Below are positions 15,208 to 31,215 of a DNA stretch of 64,000 nt, one piece after another. The notes below the pieces were generated by a model that searched no databases, was not told the origin of the DNA, and worked only from the letters and a program-made list of their open reading frames with translations. Position 1 is the stretch's first letter. Every line of letters begins with the position of its first letter. The stretch covers positions 19,714-83,713 of the forward strand of contig CAZUGA010000017.1 of the NCBI GenBank assembly GCA_964619885.1, read 5' to 3'. The DNA comes from an uncultured Methylococcaceae bacterium (GTDB taxonomy: Bacteria; Pseudomonadota; Gammaproteobacteria; Methylococcales; UBA1147). The position numbers and the translations under genes were made by a program.

Positions 15208-15354
15208 ATGCGGCCGGGTAATTTGCCGATCAAGATCAAAGCCCAAGCAGCGGATCGGATGATCGAAGTGGAGTTCGACCCGCGCGTAATGTCCAAGGAC
15301 GAGGCCATCGCCGCGGCACGCAAGATTCAAGCATTGGTGGAACCGAAAGCGTAG
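15208..15354 (+). CDS. possible small protein (48 aa) immediately upstream of DGR target 1
   Basis: An ATG-initiated ORF below the 60-aa track cut-off, MRPGNLPIKIKAQAADRMIEVEFDPRVMSKDEAIAAARKIQALVEPKA. It looks protein-like, but no family is recognised. Confidence 0.2.
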   Translation: MRPGNLPIKIKAQAADRMIEVEFDPRVMSKDEAIAAARKIQALVEPKA

Positions 15355-15362
15355 AGGTTCAC

Positions 15363-17336
15363 GTGGCCAAAAAATATGCGTTACTGGTTGGAACCGATCG
15401 ATATGAGGACCGCGGCTTCTCACCGCTAACCGTCCCTCGCGCCGACGTCGCAGCGCTAAAAAATGTATTGACGGATCCGCAGATTGGCGGTTTTGATCAG
15501 GTCGATACACTGTTGAATGGTTCACTCGCCGAGATCATGGAGGCGGTCGGCGAGCTTTTCGGTGACAAATCCAAAGACGATCTTCTGTTACTGTATTTTT
15601 CCGGCCACGGCGCGTTGGATCGTTCGGGCGAATTGCACTTGAGTGTCGCCCAAACCAAGCTCAAACGTTTAAGCACCACCGCACTGTCTTCCACGCTGAT
15701 CAAGAATGAAATGAACCACAGCCGGTCGCGGCGCCAGGTGTTGATCTTAGATTGTTGCTACGCGGGTGCTTTTTCGCGCAATTCCGCGAAATCCAAAAGC
15801 GCAACCGCGGAGCCCGCAGTCACGGAAGCAACCTTCGATGTGAAGGGTTATGGGCGCGAAATTCTGGTGTCGTCATCGGCCACCCAGCGATCCTGGGAAG
15901 GTGATGAAATTATCGGCAACAGCGACAAATCGCTGTTTACCCATTTTCTGGTTCAAGGTCTGGCCGCGGGTGAAGCGGCGCCCCAGGGCGGGTCGGATAT
16001 CACCGTCGGTCAGTTGTACGATTATGTGCACGATAAAGTCGTCGCGGCCAGTCCAGCGGTGACGCCGCAGCGCTGGGCCGAGGCGCAGACCGATTCAATT
16101 GTGTTGGCGCAAAATCCCAAACCGGTGGTCAAAACCACGCCGTTGCCGGAAGATATTTTGAGAGATTTGGACGACGACCGGCCCCACGTTCGCGAGGGCG
16201 CGATACGGGAATTGGGACGGTTGGCGGCGGGTGAAGATCAAAAACGTACTGAAGCCGTGATCGAAGTATTGCGAAACAGGCGGGTTGTGGAGCGGGATAT
16301 TTATGTTCACGAGGCGATCGATGCGGTATTGAGCAAGTTGGAGGCGTCAGCAAATGACGTGGTGGGTGTTGAACAAAAGGATGCAATATCGGCTGAAGAA
16401 TCGGCGGGTCGTCATAGGACCCAAGTTTACCTGTTCATTAGTTTTTTGTTGATCGGGGTGATTGTCGTCTTCTGGAAATCTATAACTACCGACTCCCCAC
16501 CTGATATAGCGCCATCTGTTGTTACGAATCCTAGCGCTGGGGTTCGGACAACGAAAGCCCCACTTGAGGTATCGCCAACCCTTGTCGAATCTTCGAAACC
16601 AGTCGTGTCAGCCAAACGTAAACCGGGAACTGTTTTCCAGGATACCTTGAACGATGGTTCGAAGGGTCCTGAAATGGTTGTCATCCCGGCGGGCAGTTTC
16701 CGTATGGGGGATATTCAAGGTGTAGGTCATAGCGATGAGCAACCCGTGCATAAGGTCACGATCAAGCGGCCTTTTGCGCTAAGCAAATACCCAATCACCT
16801 TTGCCGAATACGACCATTATCGAGAAGCTATCAACAAGCCTAAACCTTCCGATAACGATTGGGGTCGAGGTAATCGACCCGTCATCAATGTTTCTTGGAT
16901 TGATGCAACGGCTTATGCGGCGTGGTTGAGTGATCAAACCGGAAAGCGCTACCGCTTGCCTTCGGAAGCCGAATGGGAATACGCGGCCCGCGGGTGGAAG
17001 GAAACCGAATATTGGTGGGGAGACGAAGCCGATAAGAAACATGCCAATTTTTCTGGATATAATACAACGCCGGTTGATAAATACGCCGCAAATCCGTTTG
17101 GATTGCATGATACTTCGGGGAATGTTTGGGAATGGGTGCAGGATACCTGGCACGATACCTATAAATCGGCCCCAATTGATGGATCTGCATGGTTTGATAG
17201 TGACTCTCGACTCCGCGTGCTGCGTGGCGGCTCTTGGGGCATTGAGCCGGACTTCGCGCGTTCGGCGTACCGGTACAGGTACAGACCGGAGACCTCGAGC
17301 TACTATGTTGGATTTCGCTTGGCCCAGGACCTATAA
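15363..17336 (+). CDS. DGR target protein 1
   Basis: GTG start. Caspase dyad motifs YFSGHG and LDCCYAG, HEAT-like repeats, then the TM segment YLFISFLLIGVIVVFW. The C-terminus carries SUMF1/FGE hallmarks (RLPSEAEWEYAARG, GNVWEWV, RVLRGGSW) and contains VR1. Confidence 0.85.
   Translation: MAKKYALLVGTDRYEDRGFSPLTVPRADVAALKNVLTDPQIGGFDQVDTLLNGSLAEIMEAVGELFGDKSKDDLLLLYFSGHGALDRSGELHLSVAQTKLKRLSTTALSSTLIKNEMNHSRSRRQVLILDCCYAGAFSRNSAKSKSATAEPAVTEATFDVKGYGREILVSSSATQRSWEGDEIIGNSDKSLFTHFLVQGLAAGEAAPQGGSDITVGQLYDYVHDKVVAASPAVTPQRWAEAQTDSIVLAQNPKPVVKTTPLPEDILRDLDDDRPHVREGAIRELGRLAAGEDQKRTEAVIEVLRNRRVVERDIYVHEAIDAVLSKLEASANDVVGVEQKDAISAEESAGRHRTQVYLFISFLLIGVIVVFWKSITTDSPPDIAPSVVTNPSAGVRTTKAPLEVSPTLVESSKPVVSAKRKPGTVFQDTLNDGSKGPEMVVIPAGSFRMGDIQGVGHSDEQPVHKVTIKRPFALSKYPITFAEYDHYREAINKPKPSDNDWGRGNRPVINVSWIDATAYAAWLSDQTGKRYRLPSEAEWEYAARGWKETEYWWGDEADKKHANFSGYNTTPVDKYAANPFGLHDTSGNVWEWVQDTWHDTYKSAPIDGSAWFDSDSRLRVLRGGSWGIEPDFARSAYRYRYRPETSSYYVGFRLAQDL
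17203..17327 (+). repeat. DGR variable repeat VR1 (3' end of target 1)
   Basis: ~123 bp matching the TR at 18834-18958. In the 115-bp core all 18 mismatches are at TR adenine positions. Confidence 0.85.
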
Positions 17337-17410
17337 CCCTTTTCGCTTTGTTCTTTTACTCTTTTTACTTCTTGAATGTTAGAAAATAATTCGAATATAG
17401 TCGTCACAGG

Positions 17411-17770
17411 ATGAGCCAAACCACTCCGCAAGCCATCCATCTATGCCATGAGTTGTTGGGTTGGCTCATCCCGTTGCTGGATAAATTCCCACGCAGCGGA
17501 CGTTTCAGCCTGGGTGATCGTTTGGAGAGTGCGCTATTGGATGTGCTGGAACGTTTGGTCGAAGCCGCCTATACCCGGGCAAATCTCAAAGGACAAGCCT
17601 TATCTTCGGCCAATCTCCGGTTAGAAGTTGCGCGGCAACTATGGCGGCTGTGCTTTGAATTCAAGCTGATCTCAACAAAACGCTATCGTTATGGTGCCGA
17701 ATTGATGGACGATTTGGGACGGCAAATCGGCGGTTGGTTGCGCAGCAGCAGCGCAGGTCGCGCTCGATGA
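17411..17770 (+). CDS. avd: DGR accessory variability determinant (Avd-like)
   Basis: 119-aa helical, basic protein directly upstream of the RT with an ATGA stop/start overlap, a typical Avd position. Confidence 0.75.
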   Translation: MSQTTPQAIHLCHELLGWLIPLLDKFPRSGRFSLGDRLESALLDVLERLVEAAYTRANLKGQALSSANLRLEVARQLWRLCFEFKLISTKRYRYGAELMDDLGRQIGGWLRSSSAGRAR

Positions 17771-18876
17771 AAAGGTTGGGTCAAATTTGGGGAAAAATCT
17801 GTAGTTTCGAAAATTTATGGATTGCCTATAGAAAAGCGCGGCTCGGCAAGACTTTACGGCCCAGTGTCGCCTTGTTTTCCATGAATGTGGAAAAAGAGTT
17901 AATGGTTTTGCAAAGAGAACTCCGCGATGGGAGTTATCAACCTGGGGAATATCGGCTTTTTACGATTTATGAACGCAAACCCCGCGCGATCGCCGCCGCG
18001 CCATTTCGGGACCGCGTTGTTCATCATGCGATCATGAATCTGTTAGAGCCCACGTTGGATCGAAGTTTTATAAACGATTCCTATGCATGCCGCAAAGGTA
18101 AAGGGGTTCACCGGGCGGTCGATCGGTTTCAGCGTTGGGCACAACGCTATACCTATGTTTTAAAACTTGATGTCGAGCAATATTTTTCGTCAATCGACCA
18201 TCCGATTCTCAAGGAAAAATTGCATCGCAAAATAAAGGACCGGTCAAGCTTAGCCTTATTGGAAAAAATAATTGATGCCAGCCCGCAAAATCCTAAACGG
18301 CCATTAGACTTTTTTCGGGGTGATGATCTATTGACGCCGTTGGGCAGGGGTGTGGGCATTCCAATCGGGAATCTTACCAGCCAGTTTTTCGCCAATCTTT
18401 TTCTGGATGATCTTGACCATTTCATTAAGCAGGAGCTGCGGGTAAAAGGATATCTCCGCTATGTTGATGATATGGTTTTATTGGCCGATAGCAAAACGGA
18501 GTTGGCCGAATACCGTGAGATTATTCGGGAGAAATTAGAAGATTTAAGGTTGCGAGTGCACCCGAGAAAAGCGCATATCAGCCGCGCTGTCGACGGGTTG
18601 AACTTATTCGGGTATTTGGTTTATCGGGATTATCGAAGGTTAAGGAACGACAATGGTTATCGATTCGCCAGAAAATTGCGCGGGTTTGCTAAGGCTTACG
18701 AAGTTTGGGAGGTTGATTGGGATACATTGAACAGTTCGGTCCAAAGCTGGATCGGTCATGCCAAGCACGCCGATATATGGGGATTGCGCACAGCGATTTT
18801 TTCTGACATTGTATTTCGCAGGGGACCCGACCCACAAACGAATCCGCGTGCTGCGTGGCGGCTCTTGGAACAATAA
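17767..18876 (+). CDS. DGR reverse transcriptase
   Basis: RT domains with the YVDD box and the DGR-specific motif-4 IGNLTSQ (versus QGxxxSP in group II/retron RTs). The 3' end overlaps the TR. Confidence 0.9.
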   Translation: MKRLGQIWGKICSFENLWIAYRKARLGKTLRPSVALFSMNVEKELMVLQRELRDGSYQPGEYRLFTIYERKPRAIAAAPFRDRVVHHAIMNLLEPTLDRSFINDSYACRKGKGVHRAVDRFQRWAQRYTYVLKLDVEQYFSSIDHPILKEKLHRKIKDRSSLALLEKIIDASPQNPKRPLDFFRGDDLLTPLGRGVGIPIGNLTSQFFANLFLDDLDHFIKQELRVKGYLRYVDDMVLLADSKTELAEYREIIREKLEDLRLRVHPRKAHISRAVDGLNLFGYLVYRDYRRLRNDNGYRFARKLRGFAKAYEVWEVDWDTLNSSVQSWIGHAKHADIWGLRTAIFSDIVFRRGPDPQTNPRAAWRLLEQ

Positions 18877-18958
18877 ACCGAACAACGCGCGTTCGGCGAA
18901 CCGGAACAGGAACAAACCGGAGAACTCGAACAACAATGTTGGATTTCGCTTGGCCCAG
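18834..18958 (+). repeat. DGR template repeat (TR)
   Basis: Non-coding copy of the VR, adenine-rich, translating as NNKPNNARSANRNRNKPENSNNNVGFRLAQ. It differs from VR1 and VR2 almost only at its A positions. Confidence 0.85.
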
Positions 18959-18968
18959 TCTACCTGTG

Positions 18969-18981
18969 CGGCCGAAAGCCG
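18969..18981 (+). other. TR-specific hairpin CGGC-CGAAA-GCCG immediately 3' of TR
   Basis: Lies within a 23-nt insertion present after the TR but absent after both VRs. Confidence 0.35.
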
Positions 18982-19093
18982 GACCTAGAGCCAGGTTGTT
19001 CATGGACAACATGGGAATGGTGCGCAGGTGTCCATGAGCCGGGTTCCCGGTTTCGCAAGGATGGGAAAGACGAATAGTATTGTTAGGAAAACG

Positions 19094-19134
19094 GCAAGCG
19101 GGGCTGGTAGGATTTTTCCGAAGGCCCCGCTTGC
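19094..19134 (+). terminator. 11-bp-stem hairpin (GCAAGCGGGGC...GCCCCGCTTGC) downstream of RT/TR
   Basis: Inverted repeat seen in sequence. A T-rich tract follows ~20 nt later, so this is a possible 3' end of the RT-TR transcript. Confidence 0.3.
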
Positions 19135-19178
19135 ATTACAAAGATGCTTTCGATCTTTTTAATTTTGGGGGTTGGGAA

Positions 19179-19271
19179 GCAGTTTGTTGATTGATCAGAA
19201 CGCGTGAATACGTCCGTGTAAGCTCCGCTGCAACATCCTTGTTGCAGAAGTCTGATCAATCAACAATCTGC
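19179..19271. repeat. nested inverted repeats between TR and target 2 (outer ~21-bp arms GCAGTTTGTTGATTGATCAGA / TCTGATCAATCAACAATCTGC; inner 8-bp hairpin CTGCAACA-TCCT-TGTTGCAG)
   Basis: Seen directly in sequence. Confidence 0.5.
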
Positions 19272-19393
19272 TTGCTTGCCGAATAGATGGATGGCCGTTT
19301 TATATAGATTTATAGGTTGTAAACATTGGGATTACTCGGAAAATTACAAAGACCTGGATTGATTGAGCCTCGGATTGGATACGGAAAATAAAC

Positions 19394-21136
19394 TTGGCAA
19401 AAAAATACGCGCTTTTGATTGGTAATACGGATTACAAAGACGAACATTTACCGCAATTGAGTGGTTCGCTTGTGGATATTAAATCCGTAGCAGCGGTGTT
19501 GAATAATCGGAAAATTTGTGGATTCGATGAGGTCATACGACTGCCAAACCCGACGTTTTCAGAGTCTATGCGGGCTTTGAGTCAGTTATTTGCAAATAAG
19601 ACCAAGGATGAACTGCTATTGTTTTATTTTAGCGGACACGGAGTTAAAGATCACGCGGGCGACTTGTTCTTCGCGATCAAGGAAACCGAGCATGGGTTGT
19701 ATGACGGAACCGCGATCGCGGCGTCACTGCTGAAAAACATCGTTAACAAAAGCGGCTCGCATCGCCAGGTATTGATACTGGACTGTTGCCACAGCGGAGC
19801 CATCACGCAGGGCCTAAAAGGAATCGATACGATGGTGACAACCGATACGTTCGATGTTACAGGCTATGGCTGTGGGATTATTGCCGCAACCCGCTCGCAT
19901 CAATACGCGGCGGATAGTACTGGCAGCGATGAAAGTAGCCAGCGTTCGTTATTTACGCATTTTTTGGTCGAAGGCTTGGAAACGGGTGCGGCAGCGGACG
20001 AAAGCTCCGATACGGTAACCGTCGAACAGCTCTACCAGTATGTCCACAAAAAAGTTACCGAAGTTCGGCCGGGTATGCAACCTGTGTACATCTGCGACCA
20101 ATCGATCGGGCGGATTGGATTGGCGAAGAATCCGCGCCAAGTTTTTAAATTGCCTGAGGATCTAATGAATGATCTGGTGGATGCCAACCCAAGGACCCGC
20201 ATCGGTGTATTACGCGAATTGAATACAATTGTTGTGAAAGGGGATGAGCGGAAGCGTGCAGCAGTACAAAATGTGCTGAGTGCTCGAATGGACGAAGAAC
20301 GTGACCGTTTTGTACACCAGGAGATTGAGCAATTGTTGACGGTCTTGAGCGAAGTCACCGCGGACACTGTTAAACCCGAGCGTATCTCAGTAACTCGTCC
20401 TGAAAATACCGATTCTCTTGACCCGGGACGGGTATTTAGTGATACCTTGAAAGACGGTTCGAATGGTCCCGAGATGATGGTAATACCTGCAGGAAAATTC
20501 CGAATGGGGGATATTTCAGGCAATGGGGATGAAGATGAAAAACCGGTTCACGAGGTCAAAATCGAACGTCTGTTCGCATTGGGTAAGTACCCGGTAAGCT
20601 TTGCCGAATACGATTATTATTGCGACCAGACCGGCGTGGACAAACCCGGTGATGAAGATTGGGGCCGAAATGATCGTCCGGTCATCAATGTTTCTTGGAA
20701 CGATGCTGTTGCGTACATCGAATGGTTGAGGGAACAAACTGGTAAGCGCTACCGTTTGCCTTCCGAGGCCGAATGGGAATACGCGGCACGGGGCGGGACA
20801 GACACAGCGTATTGGTGGGGAGATGAAGCCGACAAAAATCTTGCGAATTTTAGCGGCAAAAAAACCAATCCGGTGAAAAAATTCAAAGCGAATCTATTCG
20901 GCTTACACGACACATTGGGTAATGTTTGGGAGTGGGTGCAAGATACATGGCACGAGAATTATCAGTCTGCTCCATGCGATGGTTCTGCCTGGTTGGACGA
21001 TGAACTTCGACTCCGCGTACTGCGTGGCGGCTCTTGGTACAGTGAGCCGAACTACGCGCGTTCGGCGTTCCGGAACAGGGACGAACCGGAGTACTCGAAC
21101 TACAATGTTGGATTTCGCTTGGCCCAGGACCTTTAG
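19394..21136 (+). CDS. DGR target protein 2
   Basis: TTG start. Paralog of target 1 with YFSGHG and LDCCHSG caspase motifs and C-terminal FGE motifs containing VR2. No TM helix is evident. Confidence 0.85.
   Translation: MAKKYALLIGNTDYKDEHLPQLSGSLVDIKSVAAVLNNRKICGFDEVIRLPNPTFSESMRALSQLFANKTKDELLLFYFSGHGVKDHAGDLFFAIKETEHGLYDGTAIAASLLKNIVNKSGSHRQVLILDCCHSGAITQGLKGIDTMVTTDTFDVTGYGCGIIAATRSHQYAADSTGSDESSQRSLFTHFLVEGLETGAAADESSDTVTVEQLYQYVHKKVTEVRPGMQPVYICDQSIGRIGLAKNPRQVFKLPEDLMNDLVDANPRTRIGVLRELNTIVVKGDERKRAAVQNVLSARMDEERDRFVHQEIEQLLTVLSEVTADTVKPERISVTRPENTDSLDPGRVFSDTLKDGSNGPEMMVIPAGKFRMGDISGNGDEDEKPVHEVKIERLFALGKYPVSFAEYDYYCDQTGVDKPGDEDWGRNDRPVINVSWNDAVAYIEWLREQTGKRYRLPSEAEWEYAARGGTDTAYWWGDEADKNLANFSGKKTNPVKKFKANLFGLHDTLGNVWEWVQDTWHENYQSAPCDGSAWLDDELRLRVLRGGSWYSEPNYARSAFRNRDEPEYSNYNVGFRLAQDL
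21003..21127 (+). repeat. DGR variable repeat VR2 (3' end of target 2)
   Basis: Matches the TR. In the core there are 11 mismatches at TR adenines plus one G to A at 21019. Confidence 0.85.
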
Positions 21137-21283
21137 CCCTTTTTGCTTTGTTCTTTTACCCTTTTTTATCTGGTGTTAAAAAAGTCTGGAATAGTTAATT
21201 TTACATGCCATTTTTCTAAATCAGCGTCCAAAAAATGATTTACCAAAACGGAAAATAGTGCAGGTTTTCTGCTTTCATTTTCG

Positions 21284-21813
21284 CTAGCGAAAATGAAAGC
21301 GGATAATATCCAAAATATGGGTTAGGCCCTGACCCTGCGCCAAACTTTGCGCGGTGTTGGCTTGGTGGTCGGCGATGGTGGGGTTTGCGCCGTTCTTCAT
21401 CAGTAATTCTACGATTTTTTCCTGTCCGAATAACGAAGCCATCATCAACGCGGTTTGCCCGGCGTTGTTTCGGTGGTTGATGTCGCATTCGGTGTGTTCG
21501 ATCAGCCATTGCGCAGTTTGGGTATGCCCCTTGAACGCGACCCCATAAAAGCATTGCTACCTCTGGCATCCTGAGCACAAGCATTGGCACCGAAGGCGAG
21601 CAAATGCGCCGCGGTATCGTGATGCCCGTAATAGGTGGCGAGTATAAAAAGATTGTCACCGCGATCATTGCGCGCGTGAATATCGCCGCCAGCGGTGGCG
21701 TAGCTTCGAATGGCATTGATATTTCCGGTCCGGGCGGCATCGAAAGCGTCGATGTCTTCCGCTACAACCGAGTAAGAAATGACTAGTAAGCCTATGGCTA
21801 TGATTTTATTCAT
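21284..21813 (-). pseudogene. ankyrin-repeat protein with signal peptide, interrupted by a -1 frameshift near 21507 (G-run)
   Basis: The 103-aa ORF 21502-21813 ends at a stop, but ankyrin repeats continue in another frame (VAFKGHTQTAQWLIEHTECDINHRNNAGQTALMMAS...) down to the stop at 21284. Confidence 0.55.
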
Positions 21814-21888: not shown

Positions 21889-22998
21889 CTAATTGGGATA
21901 AATTGCGGCAAGTTCTTTAACTTTGGTCATGTTTGCGTTGGCGGCAATACCGACCCGCATGCCATACTCGGGATCCGCCTTGTAAAGATACGATGTGATG
22001 ATATTGCGAATTTCCGGGCTTTTGACCTGGACCAAATCGCCACCGAATGCTTCCACTAACGCGTTTTTTGATCGGGCATCGAAGGACTGGTACAAATCCC
22101 CGGCTTGCTTGAAATCCTGGGTTTTGTGGAACGGGATTTGTTGTGTTGAACCGTTTAACGGTGTCGCGCAAGCCTTGTAATCCGCGTGGGTTACCGCGTA
22201 GCCTGCATCGCTTTGGTAGCGGCTGGGAAAATAATTGACGCTCTGCGCTTTGGTGGACGAAAAACCAATGCCGTCTTGAACGCTGATGGCGTGAACCGGC
22301 GAACGGGGTTTGTTGGGTGCTAATTCCAAATGGTTGGCGCCCAACCGGTAGCGCTGCGTGTCGGCGTACGAAAACAAGCGTCCCTGCAACATCCGGTCTT
22401 CCGAGGGTTCGATGCCGGGGATCATATTGCTCGGCGCAAACGCGGCTTGTTCGGTCCATTGGAAGAAGTTGTCCGGTACTTCGTTCAATACCATTTCACC
22501 GACTTTGCGCGCGGGAACTTGGGATTCTGGCCAGATGACCGTGGTATCCAGTGGGTTAAACGCAAACCGACCCAATTGATTTGGATCCATGGTCTGGATG
22601 TACAGATCCCAAACTGGGAAGTTGCCGCGGTCAATATTTTGGTATAAATCCTGGGTCAAATGGTTGAAGTTGGTCGCCTGGATTTTTTCCGCTTCTGCCG
22701 GTGTTAGACCTTTGATGCCCTGGCGTGATTTCCAGGTGAACTTAACATAGCGAACTTGGCAGTCGTCGGTGACGAATTTAAACGCGTGAACCCCGGAACC
22801 GTCCATCTGGCGCAAACTTTCGGGTATGCCCAACGGCGAGTACAAGAAGGTCAACATATGGGTCGCTTCGGGTTTGAACGAGAAAAAATCGAAATAGCGG
22901 TTTGGGTCCTGATTAAAGTCGCGTGACCGCAGAACCCCACCAAATATCGAGTCGGCAGACCGATAGATAGTTTGTTTGTAAAGAACACAAATAGTTCT
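21889..22998 (-). pseudogene. catalase, N-terminally truncated (lacks ~150 aa including distal-His region)
   Basis: Catalase core and C-terminal motifs are present (RLFSYADTQRYRLG, FDRERIPER-like). Similarity extends upstream of the annotated Met to an in-frame stop at 22999-23001, where homology ends abruptly. Confidence 0.75.
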
Positions 22999-23227: not shown

Positions 23228-23497
23228 ATGACTACTGTAACGATTAAAGATTTGACCACCGAAAAAGAATTAGACCACAAAGCGATGTCTGAAGTCTCCG
23301 GCGGTAACGCTGCGATCGCAATGGCTGATAGCTTGGGTCTGGGCCTTTTCTTCGCCAGCCCTGTCATTCACAACGTCGCTAACGACCAATACAACATCGG
23401 TTCACAGAGCGCTGTCATCGGCGGCGGCAACCTGATCGGCGACGGCGTATTCGCACCGGTTCAATTTCAAGGTTTGTATCAAAGCAACAACGCTTAA
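23228..23497 (+). CDS. double-glycine leader peptide, bacteriocin/microcin-like precursor (paralog 1)
   Basis: The leader MTTVTIKDLTTEKELDHKAMSEVSGG fits the GG-leader consensus. The core is Gly/Ala/Asn-rich and has no Cys. Confidence 0.7.
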   Translation: MTTVTIKDLTTEKELDHKAMSEVSGGNAAIAMADSLGLGLFFASPVIHNVANDQYNIGSQSAVIGGGNLIGDGVFAPVQFQGLYQSNNA

Positions 23498-23538
23498 TTT
23501 TATTCACTGACTTATTTATTTAACGATTAATTGGAGAA

Positions 23539-23793
23539 ATGACCATGACAACTTTATCGATTACTGATTTGAGCAGCGAAAAAGCATTGGACCGTAAGGA
23601 AATGTCTGAAGTATCCGGCGGCACCGACTTTTCGGCTTTGCTAGCCATCGCTAGCCCGTTTATCACGAATATTGCAAACGACCAGTACAACATTGGCGCG
23701 CAGTCGTCTTTCATCGGCGGCGGTAACTATATCGAAGACGGCGTCTACGCACCGGTTCAAATCCAGTGGATGAACCAAAGCAACAACGCTTAA
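23539..23793 (+). CDS. double-glycine leader peptide, bacteriocin/microcin-like precursor (paralog 2)
   Basis: Leader ...KALDRKEMSEVSGG, with a conserved core motif. Confidence 0.7.
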   Translation: MTMTTLSITDLSSEKALDRKEMSEVSGGTDFSALLAIASPFITNIANDQYNIGAQSSFIGGGNYIEDGVYAPVQIQWMNQSNNA

Positions 23794-23838
23794 TTTGAGT
23801 TATTAATTTTAATTTAACAATTATTTGGAGAAACTATC

Positions 23839-24111
23839 ATGACATTATCAATCAAAGATTTGAGCGTAGCTAAAGAAATGGACCGCAAGGAAATGACAGA
23901 AGTCTCTGGCGGGAACGCTGCACTGGCTATGGCCGGTGGCTTCGGACTGGATATTGCGGCTTTCATCGGTAGCCCAGTGATCCACAACGTCGCTAACGAT
24001 CAGTACAACACTGGCGCACAAAGCGCTGGAATCGGCGGCGGCAACATGGTCGGCGACGGCGTATTCGCACCGGTTCAGTGGCAGGATCTGTACCAAAGCA
24101 ACAACGCTTAA
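23839..24111 (+). CDS. double-glycine leader peptide, bacteriocin/microcin-like precursor (paralog 3)
   Basis: Leader MTLSIKDLSVAKEMDRKEMTEVSGG. The upstream spacer and leader are near-identical to paralog 4. Confidence 0.7.
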   Translation: MTLSIKDLSVAKEMDRKEMTEVSGGNAALAMAGGFGLDIAAFIGSPVIHNVANDQYNTGAQSAGIGGGNMVGDGVFAPVQWQDLYQSNNA

Positions 24112-24156
24112 TTTGAGTTATTAATTTTAATTTAACAATTATTTGGAGAAACTATC

Positions 24157-24429
24157 ATGACATTATCAATCAAAGATTTGAGCGTAGCTAAAGAAATGGA
24201 CCGCAAGGAAATGACAGAGGTCTCTGGCGGAAACGCTGCACTGGCTATGGCCGGCGGCTTCGGATTGGATCTTGCTGCTTTCATCGGTAGCCCGGTCATC
24301 CACAACGTGGCTAACGATCAGAAAAACACGGGCGCACAAGCTGCTTCCATCGGCGGCGGCAACTTAGTCGGCGACGGCGTATTCGCACCGGTTCAGTGGC
24401 AGTCTATGTACCAAAGCAACGTATCTTAA
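24157..24429 (+). CDS. double-glycine leader peptide, bacteriocin/microcin-like precursor (paralog 4)
   Basis: Tandem duplicate of paralog 3, with a ~318-bp repeat period. Confidence 0.7.
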   Translation: MTLSIKDLSVAKEMDRKEMTEVSGGNAALAMAGGFGLDLAAFIGSPVIHNVANDQKNTGAQAASIGGGNLVGDGVFAPVQWQSMYQSNVS

Positions 24430-27991: not shown

Positions 27992-29305
27992 ATGATAAAT
28001 GCTAAAAAGAATACTTCTATCAACAAGGGTTTAGTGGGGGGATTATTTGCTATCTCGGCGATGACGATGCCGGCGATATCGCACGCAGAAGATGTCCTGA
28101 ATTCGGGGGATACCGCGTGGATGTTGACATCGATGGTGTTGGTTTTGTTTATGACAATTCCAGGTCTTTCATTGTTCTACGCGGGAATGGTAAGAAGCAA
28201 AAACCCACTGTCAGTGATGATGCAATGTTTCACCATTACCTGTTTGATTACGGTCATTTGGGTGATTTATGGCTACAGTCTGGCGTTTGGTGACGGCGAT
28301 GCCTTTGTCGGTTATCTAGGCAAAGCTTTTATGGCAGGCGTCGGCGTGGAAACTTTGAGCGGAACTATACCGGAATCAGTGTTCGCAATGTTCCAATTAA
28401 CCTTTGCGATCATTACACCAGCTTTGATCGTTGGTGCTTTTGCCGAGCGCATGAAATTTTCTGCGATGCTCTGGTTTATGGCCTTATGGGTGACGGTAGT
28501 TTACGCGCCGGTTTGTCACTGGGTATGGGGCGGCGGTTGGCTCGGCGACCAAGGCGTACTGGATTTCGCAGGCGGTACAGTTGTACATATTAACGCGGGC
28601 ATTGCCGGATTGGTTTGTGCGATTGTTCTGGGCAAGAGAAAAGGCTATCCATCAACTGCAATGCCGCCCCATAGTATGGTGTTGACCTTGGTTGGTGCTG
28701 GAATGTTGTGGGTAGGGTGGTTTGGTTTTAACGCGGGCAGCGAGCTTGCCGCGGACGGAACTGCCGGAATGGCAATGGTAGTGACTCAGGTGGCAACTGC
28801 GACGGCTGCGTTAACCTGGATGTTCGTTGAGTGGAAAATTCATGGCAAACCTAGCGCATTGGGGATTGCGTCGGGCGCGGTTGCTGGACTGGTTGCCATT
28901 ACTCCTGCGTCCGGTTACGTTGGGCCGATGGGAGCGTTGGCGATCGGTGCTGCCTCAGGTTTGGGTTGTTACATTGTTGCGGTGCACATTAAGCGGGCTT
29001 TGGGCTTTGATGACTCATTGGATGCGTTTAGCGTTCACGGGGTTGGCGGAATTATCGGGGCTATATTGACTGGCGTCTTTGCGGATGCGGCACTCGGTGG
29101 GGTTGGTCTGGAGGAAGGCGTCACGATCGGCGGACAAGTTTGGAAACAAATGATTGGAATAGGTGCGACCGTAGTTTACGATCTAATCGCAACGCTGATC
29201 TTGTTGAAAATTGTTGATCTTGTCATAGGTCTGCGCGTAACCGGCGACGAAGAGTCGGAAGGATTGGATATCGCGTTGCATGATGAACGGGGATACAACT
29301 TGTAG
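27992..29305 (+). CDS. amtB: ammonium transporter
   Basis: Signal peptide plus an 11-TM Amt fold with conserved signature motifs. Immediately downstream of glnK. Confidence 0.9.
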   Translation: MINAKKNTSINKGLVGGLFAISAMTMPAISHAEDVLNSGDTAWMLTSMVLVLFMTIPGLSLFYAGMVRSKNPLSVMMQCFTITCLITVIWVIYGYSLAFGDGDAFVGYLGKAFMAGVGVETLSGTIPESVFAMFQLTFAIITPALIVGAFAERMKFSAMLWFMALWVTVVYAPVCHWVWGGGWLGDQGVLDFAGGTVVHINAGIAGLVCAIVLGKRKGYPSTAMPPHSMVLTLVGAGMLWVGWFGFNAGSELAADGTAGMAMVVTQVATATAALTWMFVEWKIHGKPSALGIASGAVAGLVAITPASGYVGPMGALAIGAASGLGCYIVAVHIKRALGFDDSLDAFSVHGVGGIIGAILTGVFADAALGGVGLEEGVTIGGQVWKQMIGIGATVVYDLIATLILLKIVDLVIGLRVTGDEESEGLDIALHDERGYNL

Positions 29306-29919: not shown

Positions 29920-31215
29920 ATGAAAAATTATTCTAAAAAAATGATAGCTGTGACATCAGCTGCTTTGTTGTTGCCTTCGGTTGCCCTTGGGGATGAGTTG
30001 AATCAAGCTAATACGGCGTGGATATTGACCTCGACTGCACTGGTGTTGTTTATGACGATTCCTGGCTTATCGCTGTTCTATGCCGGATTGGTGCGCGCCA
30101 AGAATGTGCTCTCGGTATTGATGCAATGCTTTGTGATTACCTGCGCGATTTCGATTTTATGGTTGATAGGTGTTTATAGCCTGGCATTTGACGATGGCGG
30201 TAGTGTTCAGGCCTACATTGGTGGGACGGACAAGGTTATGGCATTTGGCATCGATGTGAACAGTCTGATCGGAGATATACCGGAAACTGTATTTTTTATG
30301 TTTCAGATGACCTTTGCCATCATAACTCCGGCCTTGATTGTTGGCGGTTTTGCAGAGCGCATGAAGTTTTCTGCGATGTTATTATTTAGTATGTTGTGGA
30401 TTGTTTTTGTCTACGCGCCGGTTTGTCATTGGGTATGGGGTGGCGGTTGGTTGTCGGAGATGGGCTTTTTGGATTTTGCTGGTGGCTCGGTAGTGCATAT
30501 CAACGCTGGCGTCGCGTCGTTGGTGGCTGCAATGGTAATTGGCAGACGACGTGGATTTCCGGATACGGCAATGCCTCCGCATAATCTAACCATGTGTATA
30601 ACTGGTGCTGGCATGCTATGGGTAGGCTGGTTTGGGTTTAACGCGGGTAGCGCGTTAGCAGCAAACGGTTCCGCTGGGATGGCGATGTTGGTCACGCATA
30701 TAGGTGCGGCTGCCGGGGCTTTGACCTGGATGCTGATCGAATGGGTACGTTTTGGCAAGCCCAGCGTTTTGGGTATTGTAACTGGAATGGTCGCGGGATT
30801 GGGAACGATTACGCCGGCATCGGGTTTTGTTGGACCGATTGGAGCATTGGCGATCGGATGTATCGCTGGAACAGTGTGTTTTATGGCGACACAGTTTTTG
30901 AAGCGTGTCCTTAAAATTGATGATTCTTTAGATGTTTTTCCGGTTCACGGTGTTGGGGGGATGGTTGGGACTACGTTAACCGGTGTATTTGCTGCGAGTT
31001 CTCTCGGCGGCATGGGTTTAGCGGATGGCGTGACGATCGGTGACCAAGTTGTAGTTCAATTGATCGGGGTGTTTGCAACTATAGTATGGAGCGCAGTAAT
31101 TAGTTATGTGTTGCTCAAAGTAGTTGACATGGTCTCTGGTTTGCGCGTTGAGGTTGACGACGAAACCCAAGGTTTGGATGTTGTTCTACACGAAGAAACG
31201 GGTTACAACATGTAA
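29920..31215 (+). CDS. amtB: ammonium transporter, second copy
   Basis: Paralog of 27992-29305. Confidence 0.9.
   Translation: MKNYSKKMIAVTSAALLLPSVALGDELNQANTAWILTSTALVLFMTIPGLSLFYAGLVRAKNVLSVLMQCFVITCAISILWLIGVYSLAFDDGGSVQAYIGGTDKVMAFGIDVNSLIGDIPETVFFMFQMTFAIITPALIVGGFAERMKFSAMLLFSMLWIVFVYAPVCHWVWGGGWLSEMGFLDFAGGSVVHINAGVASLVAAMVIGRRRGFPDTAMPPHNLTMCITGAGMLWVGWFGFNAGSALAANGSAGMAMLVTHIGAAAGALTWMLIEWVRFGKPSVLGIVTGMVAGLGTITPASGFVGPIGALAIGCIAGTVCFMATQFLKRVLKIDDSLDVFPVHGVGGMVGTTLTGVFAASSLGGMGLADGVTIGDQVVVQLIGVFATIVWSAVISYVLLKVVDMVSGLRVEVDDETQGLDVVLHEETGYNM

What the first reader, a model, noticed from the sequence alone, without database searches (positions are those of the whole stretch)
15363..21136. 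Complete diversity-generating retroelement: Avd - RT - TR with two VR-bearing target genes
All DGR hallmarks are readable directly from the sequence.

- RT (17767-18876): it has the YVDD box and the DGR-specific motif-4 IGNLTSQ.
- Avd: a 119-aa basic helical ORF sits directly upstream with an ATGA overlap.
- TR (~18834-18958): a non-coding template repeat begins inside the 3' end of the RT. It is A-rich and translates as NNKPNNARSANRNRNKPENSNNNVGFRLAQ.
- VR1 and VR2: the same ~120 bp recurs at the 3' ends of two paralogous genes (17203-17327 and 21003-21127).
- Mismatch pattern: in the 115-bp core, TR versus VR1 shows 18 substitutions and TR versus VR2 shows 11. Every one sits at a TR adenine. 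The AAC codons become Tyr/Ser/Gly/Asp/Phe/Ile/Glu/Thr codons. This is the adenine-specific mutagenic-homing signature. The single exception is a G to A change at 21019.

The element layout is target1 - avd - RT - TR - target2, with the TR downstream of the RT.
Basis: partly seen in the sequence, partly recalled or inferred. Interest (0 to 1): 0.9.

Follow-up and report, generated by a model that had tools for sequence, protein, structure and literature searches.

The report
Complete diversity-generating retroelement, two caspase-lectin targets
This is a genuine, complete diversity-generating retroelement (a reverse-transcriptase cassette that rewrites the binding tip of two protease-linked sensor proteins); it is a well-known kind of system, and only some of its flanking DNA and RNA signals may be undescribed.

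Summary
A 120-bp template repeat (TR, 18839-18958) recurs at the 3' ends of two paralogous genes: VR1 at 17208-17327 and VR2 at 21008-21127. VR1 differs from the TR at 17 positions, all TR adenines. VR2 differs at 13: 12 are TR adenines and one is a synonymous G>A change.

- **Avd:** the upstream ORF passes NCBI's curated Avd cut-off.
- **RT:** it matches the Bordetella phage DGR RT far better than group II intron RTs (E 4e-46 against 1e-19). It falls below every group II, retron, DRT and Abi cut-off.
- **Targets:** both are caspase plus C-type-lectin (FGE-sulfatase) fusions. One has a transmembrane helix and the other does not.
- **Layout:** avd-RT-TR is the published architecture B2. The closest RT relatives (44-65% identity) diversify TIR, STAND and caspase sensors.

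So this is a new member of a known kind.

- a 155-nt structured RNA after the TR, supported by covariation;
- a 9-bp duplex enclosing the TR;
- a CTTT-repeat motif directly after each target's stop codon. It is specific to this RT clade, where the classical GC hairpin is absent.

Ongoing diversification could not be shown, because all available assemblies carry identical VRs. Interest is moderate to low.

The parts
15363..17336 (+). Target gene 1 (657 aa). It has an N-terminal caspase-like protease (aa 3-239, motifs SGHG and DCCYAG), one transmembrane helix (aa ~355-373, nt 16425-16481), a Pro/Ser/Thr-rich linker and a C-terminal FGE-sulfatase/C-type-lectin domain (aa 435-654) that carries VR1.
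   Evidence: Pfam PF00656 scores 9e-16 and PF03781 scores 9e-61. NCBIfam NF047832 'caspase, EACC1-associated type' scores 167.5 bits against a cut-off of 140. The best 19-residue hydropathy window averages 2.26.
17208..17327 (+). VR1, the variable repeat at the 3' end of target 1.
   Evidence: It has 17 mismatches to the TR, all at TR adenines.
17337..17366 (+). CTTT-repeat motif directly after the stop codon of target 1 (CCCTTTTCGCTTTGTTCTTTTACTCTTTTT). It is a candidate target-recognition element.
   Evidence: The motif is conserved after the target stop codon in nearly all related loci. It is rare elsewhere.
17372..17401 (+). Promoter-like site (TTGAAT-18-TATAGT) upstream of avd. It may drive an avd-RT-TR-RNA transcript.
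   Evidence: It comes from a consensus scan only, and the region has no more such sites than shuffles give. This is weak evidence.
17411..17770 (+). avd, the accessory variability determinant (119 aa, pI 9.9).
   Evidence: NCBIfam NF033474 scores 87.8 bits against a cut-off of 80. Pfam PF22296 scores 1e-13.
17767..18876 (+). DGR reverse transcriptase (369 aa) with YVDD and IGNLTSQ motifs. Its start overlaps the avd stop (ATGA).
   Evidence: The best solved relative is the Bordetella phage bRT (8ub7, E 3.8e-46), against 1.3e-19 for a group II intron RT. It falls below all NCBIfam cut-offs for group II, retron, Drt and AbiA.
18821..18829 (+). Upstream arm (GGGGACCCG) of a long-range RNA duplex that encloses the TR. 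It lies inside the RT coding end.
   Evidence: It pairs with 19040-19048. Duplexes of 9-14 bp at the same position, with compensatory changes, occur in 17 of 19 related loci.
18839..18958 (+). TR, the template repeat (120 bp, 34 adenines, 17 variable codons). Its first 38 nt overlap the RT ORF.
18981..19135 (+). Conserved structured RNA downstream of the TR, resembling the BPP-1 'Spacer'. Its parts are:
- a 10-bp stem with a tetraloop at 18991-19014;
- an invariant GGTGTCCATGAG at 19027-19038;
- the downstream duplex arm at 19040-19048;
- a GAATAG box at 19072-19077;
- a terminal hairpin at 19096-19132.
   Evidence: RNAalifold predicts 38 pairs, 28 with compensatory changes. Pairing is 90% against 37-45% in slid controls. 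The covariance model R1 hits at full length right after the TR in 19 further loci. There is no Rfam match.
19394..21136 (+). Target gene 2 (580 aa). It has a caspase-like protease (SGHG, DCCHSG), no transmembrane helix, and a C-terminal FGE-sulfatase/C-type-lectin domain carrying VR2. It is a paralogue of target 1 (46% amino-acid identity).
   Evidence: Pfam PF00656 scores 3e-20 and PF03781 scores 9e-59. NF047832 scores 150.3 bits against a cut-off of 140..
21008..21127 (+). VR2, the variable repeat at the 3' end of target 2.
   Evidence: It has 12 mismatches at TR adenines plus one synonymous G>A at 21019.
21137..21167 (+). CTTT-repeat motif directly after the stop codon of target 2 (CCCTTTTTGCTTTGTTCTTTTACCCTTTTTT).

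Best explanation
This is a chromosomal diversity-generating retroelement of architecture target-avd-RT-TR-target. The steps below are marked as shown or inferred.

**Transcript (inferred).** avd, the RT, the TR and the structured RNA after it are read as one transcript.

**RNA scaffold (fold shown by covariation, function inferred).** The RNA folds so that a duplex encloses the TR. A stem-loop-rich 'spacer' follows the TR. By analogy with the Bordetella phage complex, this scaffold would bind the RT-Avd complex and supply the primer.

**cDNA synthesis (boundary shown, mechanism inferred).** The RT copies the TR into cDNA starting roughly 19-23 nt before the TR 3' end. It misincorporates opposite adenines.

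**Homing (outcome shown).** The cDNA replaces the homologous 120 bp at the 3' end of either target gene. The outcome is visible in the sequence. The two VRs match the TR at 86/86 and 85/86 non-adenine positions, and differ from it at 17 and 12 of 34 adenines. The surrounding paralogous DNA is only 72% identical.

**Target marking (inferred).** The recipient sites are probably marked by the CTTT-repeat motif after each stop codon. The TR lacks this motif.

**Diversity (calculated).** About 10^18 variants of the ligand-binding face of a C-type-lectin domain are possible.

**Biological role (inferred from published models).** The lectin domain is fused to a caspase-like protease. One copy would be displayed outside the membrane and the other would be cytoplasmic. 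The lectin domains would act as hypervariable ligand sensors that switch on the protease, as proposed for conflict or defence systems.
For: **Mismatch pattern.** It is adenine-only, with p = 1e-11 and 5e-7.

**Proteins.**
- Avd is above the curated cut-off.
- The RT is closest to the Bordetella bRT, with IGNLTSQ aligned to bRT IGSLTSQ.
- It is below the cut-offs for all other RT families.

**Relatives.** About 80 RT relatives were fetched, and most carry A-biased TR/VR pairs. The closest have the TR at the RT 3' end and sometimes two flanking targets.

**Homogenisation.** VR non-A positions are far more alike than the neighbouring paralogous DNA.

**Mutagenesis boundary.** The 3'-most varied adenine lies at least 19 nt from the TR end in 14 TR/VR pairs.

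**RNA elements.**
- The post-TR RNA has strong covariation.
- The TR-enclosing duplex is supported in related loci.
- Both match elements predicted for most Avd-containing DGRs (bioRxiv 10.1101/2023.10.23.563531).

**Targets.**
- Their lectin domains match the solved DGR variable protein TvpA and the FGE fold.
- The caspase His/Cys motifs are intact (read).
- The transmembrane helix is present only in target 1.
- Relatives' targets carry TIR, nSTAND1 or caspase domains. This matches the description of conflict-system DGRs in PMC10907252.
Against: **No sign of ongoing diversification.** Seven contigs from several runs carry 100% identical VRs. The 90% clusters of both target proteins hold no variants. 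These contigs seem to come from one site, so the test is weak.

**No hairpin.** No GC-rich hairpin or cruciform follows either VR.

**Identical 3' ends.** The TR and VR 3' ends are identical within the homology, so donor and recipient must be told apart by downstream sequence. That is unproven.

**Weaker points.**
- The promoter is a weak consensus match.
- The priming nucleotide could not be assigned.
- The sensor-protease role rests on domain content and published models, not on data from this locus.
Confidence: 0.9

Rival explanations
1. This is a fossil or currently silent DGR. The cassette diversified both VRs in the past but no longer homes, and the A-pattern is a historical trace.
For: VRs are identical in all seven contigs recovered. 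No variant target proteins occur in a collection of 15 billion proteins. VR2 carries one non-adenine (synonymous) change that the TR has not overwritten.
Against: avd, the RT (with YVDD) and both targets are intact ORFs. The TR-flanking RNA elements still fit the clade's structural consensus at full length (135 bits). Non-adenine positions of the VRs are 99-100% identical to the TR although the paralogues are 72% identical nearby, so the last homing events are recent compared with the gene duplication. The identical contigs probably represent one population from one site, and consensus assembly hides minority variants.
Confidence: 0.2
2. This is a working DGR, but the targets are not defence or cell-death sensors. 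The variable lectin domains would bind changing surface, nutrient or signalling ligands. The caspase domain would then serve for processing or ordinary regulated proteolysis.
For: No function has been tested for any caspase-lectin DGR target. No EACC1 partner gene or other recognised defence gene sits next to the targets. A cyanobacterial study proposed regulatory tuning rather than immunity for similar targets (PMC7517822).
Against: The caspase domain passes the curated cut-off of the 'EACC1-associated' conflict-system subfamily. The closest DGR relatives diversify TIR- and STAND-NTPase-containing proteins, which are typical immune architectures (PMC10907252).
Confidence: 0.3
3. This is not a retroelement product. 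The three repeats would be ordinary paralogous sequence kept similar by gene conversion, next to an unrelated RT (group II intron, retron or defence RT).
For: The RT gives sub-threshold hits to group II, retron and DRT models, as any RT does.
Against: Gene conversion would not restrict 29 of 30 differences to adenines of the one non-coding copy. The RT is below all curated cut-offs of those families and matches the DGR RT 26 orders of magnitude better. There is no Rfam group II intron or retron RNA in the region. Avd is present.
Confidence: 0.01

Closest known systems
Bordetella phage BPP-1 DGR (mtd-avd-TR-brt), the prototype
   Same: It shares the RT family (E 3.8e-46, IG.LTSQ motif), Avd and adenine-specific TR-to-VR transfer into the C-terminus of a C-type-lectin-fold protein. 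It also has a fixed 3' boundary of mutagenesis about 17-23 nt before the TR end, a structured RNA after the TR and a duplex enclosing the TR.
   Different: The gene order here is avd-RT-TR, with the TR overlapping the RT 3' end. This element is chromosomal, not phage-borne, and has two targets. The targets are FGE-type lectin domains fused to a caspase rather than a tail-fibre protein. No GC hairpin follows the VR. The post-TR RNA is not detectably similar in sequence or structure to the BPP-1 Spacer.
Cellular 'clade 5' DGRs that diversify conflict-system sensors (Thiohalocapsa PB-PSB1 and relatives; PMC10907252), especially the group described as clade 5D
   Same: Both commonly have two targets, each with a single C-terminal CLec/FGE domain. 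Relatives of this RT diversify nSTAND1, TIR-nSTAND1, TIR and caspase fusions, as described for that clade.
   Different: The window's targets join the protease directly to the lectin domain with no STAND NTPase.
Orthocaspase/metacaspase-FGE-sulfatase proteins and cyanobacterial DGR variable proteins with orthocaspase N-termini (PMC3501461; PMC7517822)
   Same: They share the domain order (caspase at the N-terminus, FGE/CLec at the C-terminus). Variants with transmembrane helices between the two domains are already described. Orthocaspase domains occur in DGR variable proteins.
   Different: Those examples are mostly cyanobacterial. This element comes from an uncultured marine bacterium whose closest RT relatives are in Methylococcales, Nitrospiraceae and Thiotrichaceae genomes.
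EACC1-caspase two-gene conflict system (PMC7159879, 'System 4')
   Same: The caspase domain of both targets passes NCBIfam's cut-off for the EACC1-associated caspase subfamily. That system also shows variable C-terminal domains and frequent transmembrane helices.
   Different: The defining 5' EACC1 gene, with its conserved transmembrane helix, is absent. The 48-aa ORF upstream of target 1 has no hydrophobic segment and no family match.

Membership tests
Diversity-generating retroelement (DGR) | Reverse transcriptase of the DGR lineage, with the [I/L]GxxxSQ motif and an intact YxDD catalytic box. | tested here: met
   The best solved relative is the Bordetella phage bRT (E 3.8e-46, against 1.3e-19 for a group II RT). 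IGNLTSQ aligns to bRT IGSLTSQ, and YVDD is present. No formal phylogeny was run.
Diversity-generating retroelement (DGR) | Template/variable repeat pair whose differences fall at template adenines. | tested here: met
   17 of 17 mismatches (VR1) and 12 of 13 (VR2) are at TR adenines, with p = 1e-11 and 5e-7.
Diversity-generating retroelement (DGR) | VR lies at the 3' end of a protein-coding target with a C-type-lectin (or Ig) fold. Variable adenines sit at codon positions 1-2 (AAY codons). | tested here: met
   PF03781 scores 1e-59 to 1e-61 and there are PDB matches including TvpA. 30 of 34 adenines are at codon positions 1-2. The TR has 9 AAC and 2 AAT codons.
Diversity-generating retroelement (DGR) | Accessory protein Avd (present in most, not all, DGRs). 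| tested here: met
   NF033474 scores 87.8 bits against a cut-off of 80.
Diversity-generating retroelement (DGR) | An IMH-like invariant 3' segment of the repeat that marks the 3' boundary of mutagenesis, with donor and recipient distinguishable. | tested here: inconclusive
   The last 23 nt (VR1) and 26 nt (VR2) are unvaried although they contain adenines. The boundary is at least 19 nt from the TR end across 14 pairs. However, the TR and VR are identical up to the end of the homology, so discrimination must lie downstream.
Diversity-generating retroelement (DGR) | GC-rich inverted repeat (hairpin/cruciform) just downstream of the VR. It is found in only about 34% of DGRs (PMC5758913). | tested here: not met
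   No GC-rich inverted repeat lies within 120 nt after either VR. A CTTT-repeat motif occupies that place. More distant DGRs in the fetched set do have the hairpin.
Diversity-generating retroelement (DGR) | Structured non-coding RNA next to the TR: a stem-loop downstream of the TR, and a duplex between the sequences upstream and downstream of the TR. | tested here: met
   The comparison is with the elements described in bioRxiv 10.1101/2023.10.23.563531. Binding to Avd or the RT was not testable.
Diversity-generating retroelement (DGR) | Ongoing diversification, seen as VR heterogeneity restricted to TR-adenine positions in populations. | tested here: inconclusive
   All seven contigs are identical. 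There are no variant proteins. Two pattern scans of a metagenome collection returned nothing, not even the element itself. No reads were available.
Diversity-generating retroelement (DGR) | Adenine-mutagenic, cis-primed cDNA synthesis by RT-Avd. | not testable with these tools
   This needs biochemistry or RT-PCR.
Group II intron | Intron-encoded RT/maturase above the family threshold, together with the intron ribozyme RNA. | tested here: not met
   TIGR04416 scores 136 bits against a cut-off of 300. Rfam gives no group II intron hit in the window.
Retron / defence-associated RTs (DRT, Abi) | RT above the family threshold, with the associated ncRNA or effector. | tested here: not met
   The retron St85 model scores 54 against 235. 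Drt2, Drt3a, Drt3b, Drt4, Drt5 and AbiA are all far below their cut-offs. There is no retron RNA in Rfam.
EACC1-caspase two-gene conflict system | A 5' gene encoding EACC1 (with a conserved transmembrane helix) next to the caspase gene. | tested here: not met
   The caspase subfamily model is met. However, the only upstream ORF (48 aa, 15208-15354) has no hydrophobic helix and no family hit.
DGR RT clade 5D (Dore et al. 2024) | Phylogenetic placement of the RT within that clade. | not tested
   There is only indirect agreement: relatives' targets carry nSTAND1, TIR or peptidase plus a single CLec domain, often as two targets.

The most novel reading that the evidence does not exclude
In this whole RT clade the classical GC hairpin/cruciform after the VR is replaced by a different signal. 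It consists of four ~7-8-nt (Y)CCTTT(K) units starting right after the target's stop codon.

This motif would be the element that marks a sequence as a recipient for mutagenic homing and tells VR from TR, in a clade where IMH and IMH* are identical. It is not a pairing site for the DGR RNA. It would therefore have to be read by a protein (Avd, the RT or a host factor) or act through DNA structure.

If true, it would give a handle on target recognition for some of the roughly two thirds of DGRs that lack the hairpin.
Probability: 0.35. Interest if true: 0.55.

Novelty: new member of a known kind. Interest (0 to 1): 0.35.

Why it matters
As a DGR, this adds one more example to tens of thousands already catalogued. 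Its layout, its accessory protein and its target fold are all described.

Three features are more useful:

- **Paired targets.** One template feeds two paralogous caspase-lectin proteins. One is predicted to expose its variable lectin domain outside the membrane and the other to keep it in the cytoplasm. This natural pair could be used to ask whether such sensors watch for external or internal ligands.
- **RNA scaffold.** The well-supported RNA around the TR, defined here with a covariance model across about 20 loci, could guide reconstitution of a non-phage DGR.
- **VR flank motif.** The CTTT-repeat motif after every VR of this clade is a concrete, testable candidate for the unknown target-recognition signal of DGRs that lack a hairpin.

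Tried and rejected
1. **Remote targets.** blastn of the TR against the whole window found none.
2. **VR variants in nature.**
   - Exact-protein look-ups gave seven contigs, all identical.
   - The 90% clusters of both targets hold only start-codon variants.
   - Two pattern scans of the JGI metagenome collection, with N at the TR-adenine positions, returned nothing, not even the element itself. That collection evidently does not hold it.
3. **Rfam.** There were no gathering-level hits in the window. The DGR region gave only two chance-level hits.
4. **Homology of the post-TR RNA to the BPP-1 Spacer.** The covariance model gave no credible match with filters off (best 8.6 bits, elsewhere in the locus).
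5. **Priming nucleotide.** I looked for conserved pairing between the TR tail and the invariant GGUGUCCAUGA block or the loop of the terminal hairpin. RNAduplex results were inconsistent between loci, so I make no assignment.
6. **CTTT motif as a pairing site for the DGR RNA.** Complementarity was no better than shuffles in 14 flanks. Rejected.
7. **GC hairpin after the VRs.** None was found.
8. **The 48-aa ORF upstream of target 1 as EACC1.** It has no family hit, no transmembrane helix and no relative in the fetched loci.
9. **Mobile-element context.** There are no tRNA genes and no marked GC shift. The neighbours are housekeeping genes. The element looks chromosomal.
10. **Organism.** One source sample is deep water from the Kolumbo submarine crater.

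Full report
**1. The observation**

The ORF map and a three-way alignment show the same ~120-bp sequence three times on the + strand:
- inside and just after the 3' end of the RT ORF (18839-18958);
- at the 3' end of the 657-aa ORF 15363-17336 (17208-17327);
- at the 3' end of the 580-aa ORF 19394-21136 (21008-21127).

The mismatch counts are as follows:
- The central copy differs from VR1 at 17 positions, and every one is an adenine in the central copy (34 A in 120 nt; p = 1e-11).
- It differs from VR2 at 13 positions. Twelve are adenines (p = 5e-7).
- The exception is G>A at 21019, which is synonymous (GTG>GTA).

Its counts for a '115-bp core' (18 and 11) should read 16 and 12, of which 11 are at A. 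Nothing else needs correcting.

Thirty of the 34 adenines fall on codon positions 1 and 2. The TR frame holds 9 AAC, 2 AAT and 2 AAA codons. It has 17 variable codons, which allow about 10^17.8 protein variants. blastn finds no other copy in the window.

**2. The proteins**

- **Avd.** ORF 17411-17770 (119 aa, pI 9.9) passes NCBIfam's curated Avd model (87.8 bits against a cut-off of 80) and Pfam bAvd.
- **RT.** It starts at ATG 17767, overlapping the avd stop as ATGA. It has YVDD and IGNLTSQ.
  - Against all solved structures, its best match by 26 orders of magnitude is the Bordetella phage DGR RT (8ub7, E 3.8e-46). IGNLTSQFFAN aligns to bRT IGSLTSQLFAN.
  - The next match is a group II intron RT at 1.3e-19.
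  - It falls far below NCBIfam cut-offs for group II maturase, retron, Drt2-5 and AbiA.
- **Targets.** Both have an N-terminal caspase-like domain above the curated cut-off of the 'EACC1-associated caspase' subfamily. The His and Cys motifs are intact (SGHG; DCCYAG / DCCHSG). Both have a C-terminal FGE-sulfatase/C-type-lectin domain (E about 1e-60) that also matches the solved DGR variable protein TvpA.

The two targets are paralogues with 46% identity. Target 1 carries one strongly hydrophobic helix (aa ~355-373) followed by a Pro/Ser/Thr-rich linker, and target 2 has nothing comparable. Neither has a signal peptide. I therefore infer that target 1 has a cytoplasmic protease and an extracytoplasmic lectin domain, and that target 2 is wholly cytoplasmic.

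**3. Evidence that the TR has been copied into both VRs**

I compared target 1 with target 2 without gaps:

| Region | Identity |
|---|---|
| 240 nt upstream of the VR | 72.5% |
| VR, TR non-adenine positions | 85/86 |
| VR, TR adenine positions | 20/34 |
| First 45 nt downstream | 36/45 |
| 46-120 nt downstream | 27% (about random) |

Both VRs have therefore been overwritten from the TR long after the paralogues diverged. Only adenine positions were randomised. That is the expected outcome of mutagenic homing.

**4. Relatives**

The exact RT protein occurs on seven metagenome contigs from several runs. All are 100% identical to the window over the DGR, both VRs included. One source, IMG 3300009703, is bottom water from the Kolumbo submarine crater (PMC13534618). 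These contigs probably represent one population, so the lack of VR variation says little. The 90% clusters of the two targets contain no variants.

A scan of one genome per species returned 80 loci. The closest RTs (44-65% identity) are in Methylococcales, Nitrospiraceae, Thiotrichaceae and Hahella genomes.
- In these loci the TR again sits at or over the RT 3' end, with adenine-only differences to a VR in the upstream gene.
- In several loci (L013, L018) there is also a VR in a downstream gene.
- Their targets share the lectin domain (~50% identity) but have other N-termini: nSTAND1, TIR-nSTAND1, DUF4062-nSTAND1, TIR, or caspase-PEGA in Hahella (L019).

This fits the published description of cellular DGRs that diversify putative antigen sensors of conflict systems ('clade 5D': often two targets, a single CLec, STAND NTPase or peptidase/TIR N-termini; PMC10907252).

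The gene order avd-RT-TR is architecture B2 of Wu et al. About 13% of DGRs have two targets, and FGE-type CLec targets are the largest class (PMC5758913). Metacaspase-FGE-sulfatase fusions, including versions with transmembrane helices, were catalogued in 2012 (PMC3501461). Orthocaspase N-termini occur in cyanobacterial DGR variable proteins (PMC7517822).

**5.

*Structured RNA after the TR.* The ~180 nt after the TR are conserved across the clade.
- RNAalifold predicts 38 pairs, 28 with compensatory changes.
- On the named structure, 90% of cells pair, against 37-45% when partners are slid.
- 89 cells show double changes, against 10-29 in controls.
- A covariance model hits at full length in the window and 18 further loci at strong scores, eight of which were not used to build it, plus one weak hit (L023). 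The hit is always right after the TR.
- This includes L019, where TR and RNA lie upstream of avd.
- It has no Rfam counterpart and does not match the BPP-1 Spacer.

*Window coordinates.*

| Element | Coordinates |
|---|---|
| 10-bp stem with tetraloop | 18991-19014 |
| Invariant GGTGTCCATGAG | 19027-19038 |
| GAATAG box | 19072-19077 |
| Terminal hairpin | 19096-19132 |

*Duplex enclosing the TR.* The segment 19040-19048 (CGGGTTCCC) pairs with 18821-18829 (GGGGACCCG), which lies 10 nt upstream of the TR. In 17 of 19 loci, perfect 9-14-bp duplexes occur at the same two places with different sequences, mostly matched by 1% or fewer of shuffles.

Both features correspond to what the cryo-EM study of the Bordetella complex calls the Avd-binding stem-loop and the duplex between sequences upstream and downstream of the TR. 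That study predicted such elements in 207 of 278 Avd-containing DGRs. This RNA is therefore expected in kind, although this family is not in Rfam. I could not assign the priming nucleotide.

*Boundary of mutagenesis.* Across 14 TR/VR pairs the 3'-most varied adenine is always at least 19 nt from the TR end. This is consistent with a fixed cDNA start, as in BPP-1.

**6. The VR flank**

No GC hairpin follows either VR. Instead, directly after each stop codon there is a pyrimidine-rich motif of four ~7-8-nt units:
- 17337-17366: CCCTTTTCGCTTTGTTCTTTTACTCTTTTT
- 21137-21167: CCCTTTTTGCTTTGTTCTTTTACCCTTTTTT

The same motif follows the stop codon of essentially every target gene in the clade, in different species.
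- 17 of 19 flanks have at least 3 CTTT in 45 nt, against 0.28% of background windows.
- A regular expression for four spaced CTTT units matches 17 times in 1.83 Mb (both strands). Fifteen matches are right after a DGR target, and the only two in this 64-kb window are the two VR flanks.
- The TR lacks the motif.
- More distant DGRs in the same data set (Firmicutes) have the classical GC hairpin about 20 nt after the VR instead.
- The motif shows no complementarity to the DGR RNA beyond chance.

Wu et al. found GC inverted repeats in only 34% of DGRs. They noted that where IMH and IMH* are identical, recognition must extend downstream. A literature search found no description of a CTTT or pyrimidine-rich element. 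I regard it as a candidate recipient-site signal. This is inference only.

**7. Mechanism and verdict**

*Shown:*
- the components of the cassette;
- the adenine-specific transfer outcome;
- the conserved RNA fold;
- the conserved flank motif.

*Inferred from the Bordetella model:*
- co-transcription of avd, RT, TR and the RNA (only a weak promoter-like site at 17372-17401 supports this);
- RT-Avd binding to the RNA;
- cis-primed, adenine-mutagenic cDNA synthesis;
- replacement of the VR.

*Inferred from domain content and published models:* the lectin domains act as hypervariable sensors coupled to a caspase-like protease, one facing outward and one inward. The EACC1 partner gene that defines the related two-gene conflict system is absent.

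The element is a real and apparently intact DGR, a new member of a known kind.

Noticed in passing
window 21889-22857 (-): A catalase ORF of only 322 aa. It matches Pfam Catalase profile positions 168-382 of 383, so the N-terminal ~167 residues are missing and it is probably a truncated pseudogene.
   Followed up: partly
window 21284-21813 (-): Two short overlapping ankyrin-repeat ORFs (54 and 103 aa) lie between the catalase remnant and target 2. They look like one ankyrin gene split by a frameshift, which recalls a katB-ankB type pair.
   Followed up: no
window 23228-24420 (+): Three or four tandem paralogous small ORFs (84-90 aa) each carry a conserved N-terminal ...(E/A)MSEVSGG(N/T) motif, which resembles a double-glycine leader. 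They have no Pfam or NCBIfam hit and may be a bacteriocin- or RiPP-like precursor array.
   Followed up: partly
window 19177-19273 (+): A 23-nt inverted repeat (96% complementary, 51-nt spacer holding a second 8-bp hairpin) lies between the post-TR RNA and the start of target 2. The 258-nt intergenic stretch folds with z = -3.97, and the repeat is single-copy in the window. It is followed at ~19283-19291 by CCGAATAGA, which resembles the conserved GAATAG box of the post-TR RNA.
   Followed up: partly
window 15208-15354 (+): A 48-aa ORF (MRPGNLPIKIKAQAADRMIEVEFDPRVMSKDEAIAAARKIQALVEPKA) sits 8 nt upstream of target 1 and is called as a gene in all assemblies. It has no family hit, no transmembrane helix and no relative next to the targets of related DGRs.
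   Followed up: yes
L019 5615-5790 (Hahella sp. MAG): In this relative the TR and the structured RNA lie upstream of avd. A second short lectin-like repeat lies downstream of the RT and is followed by the CTTT-repeat motif (5759). It may be a second, truncated recipient site.
   Followed up: no
window 17685-17695 (contig ends in L004, L005, L087): In two independent assemblies the contigs break inside avd (~17680-17695) rather than at a repeat. The cause is unknown; low coverage and local heterogeneity are both possible.
   Followed up: no
window 27992-29305 and 29920-31215 (+): Two ammonium transporter (Amt) paralogues lie close together. They are unrelated to the DGR.
   Followed up: no
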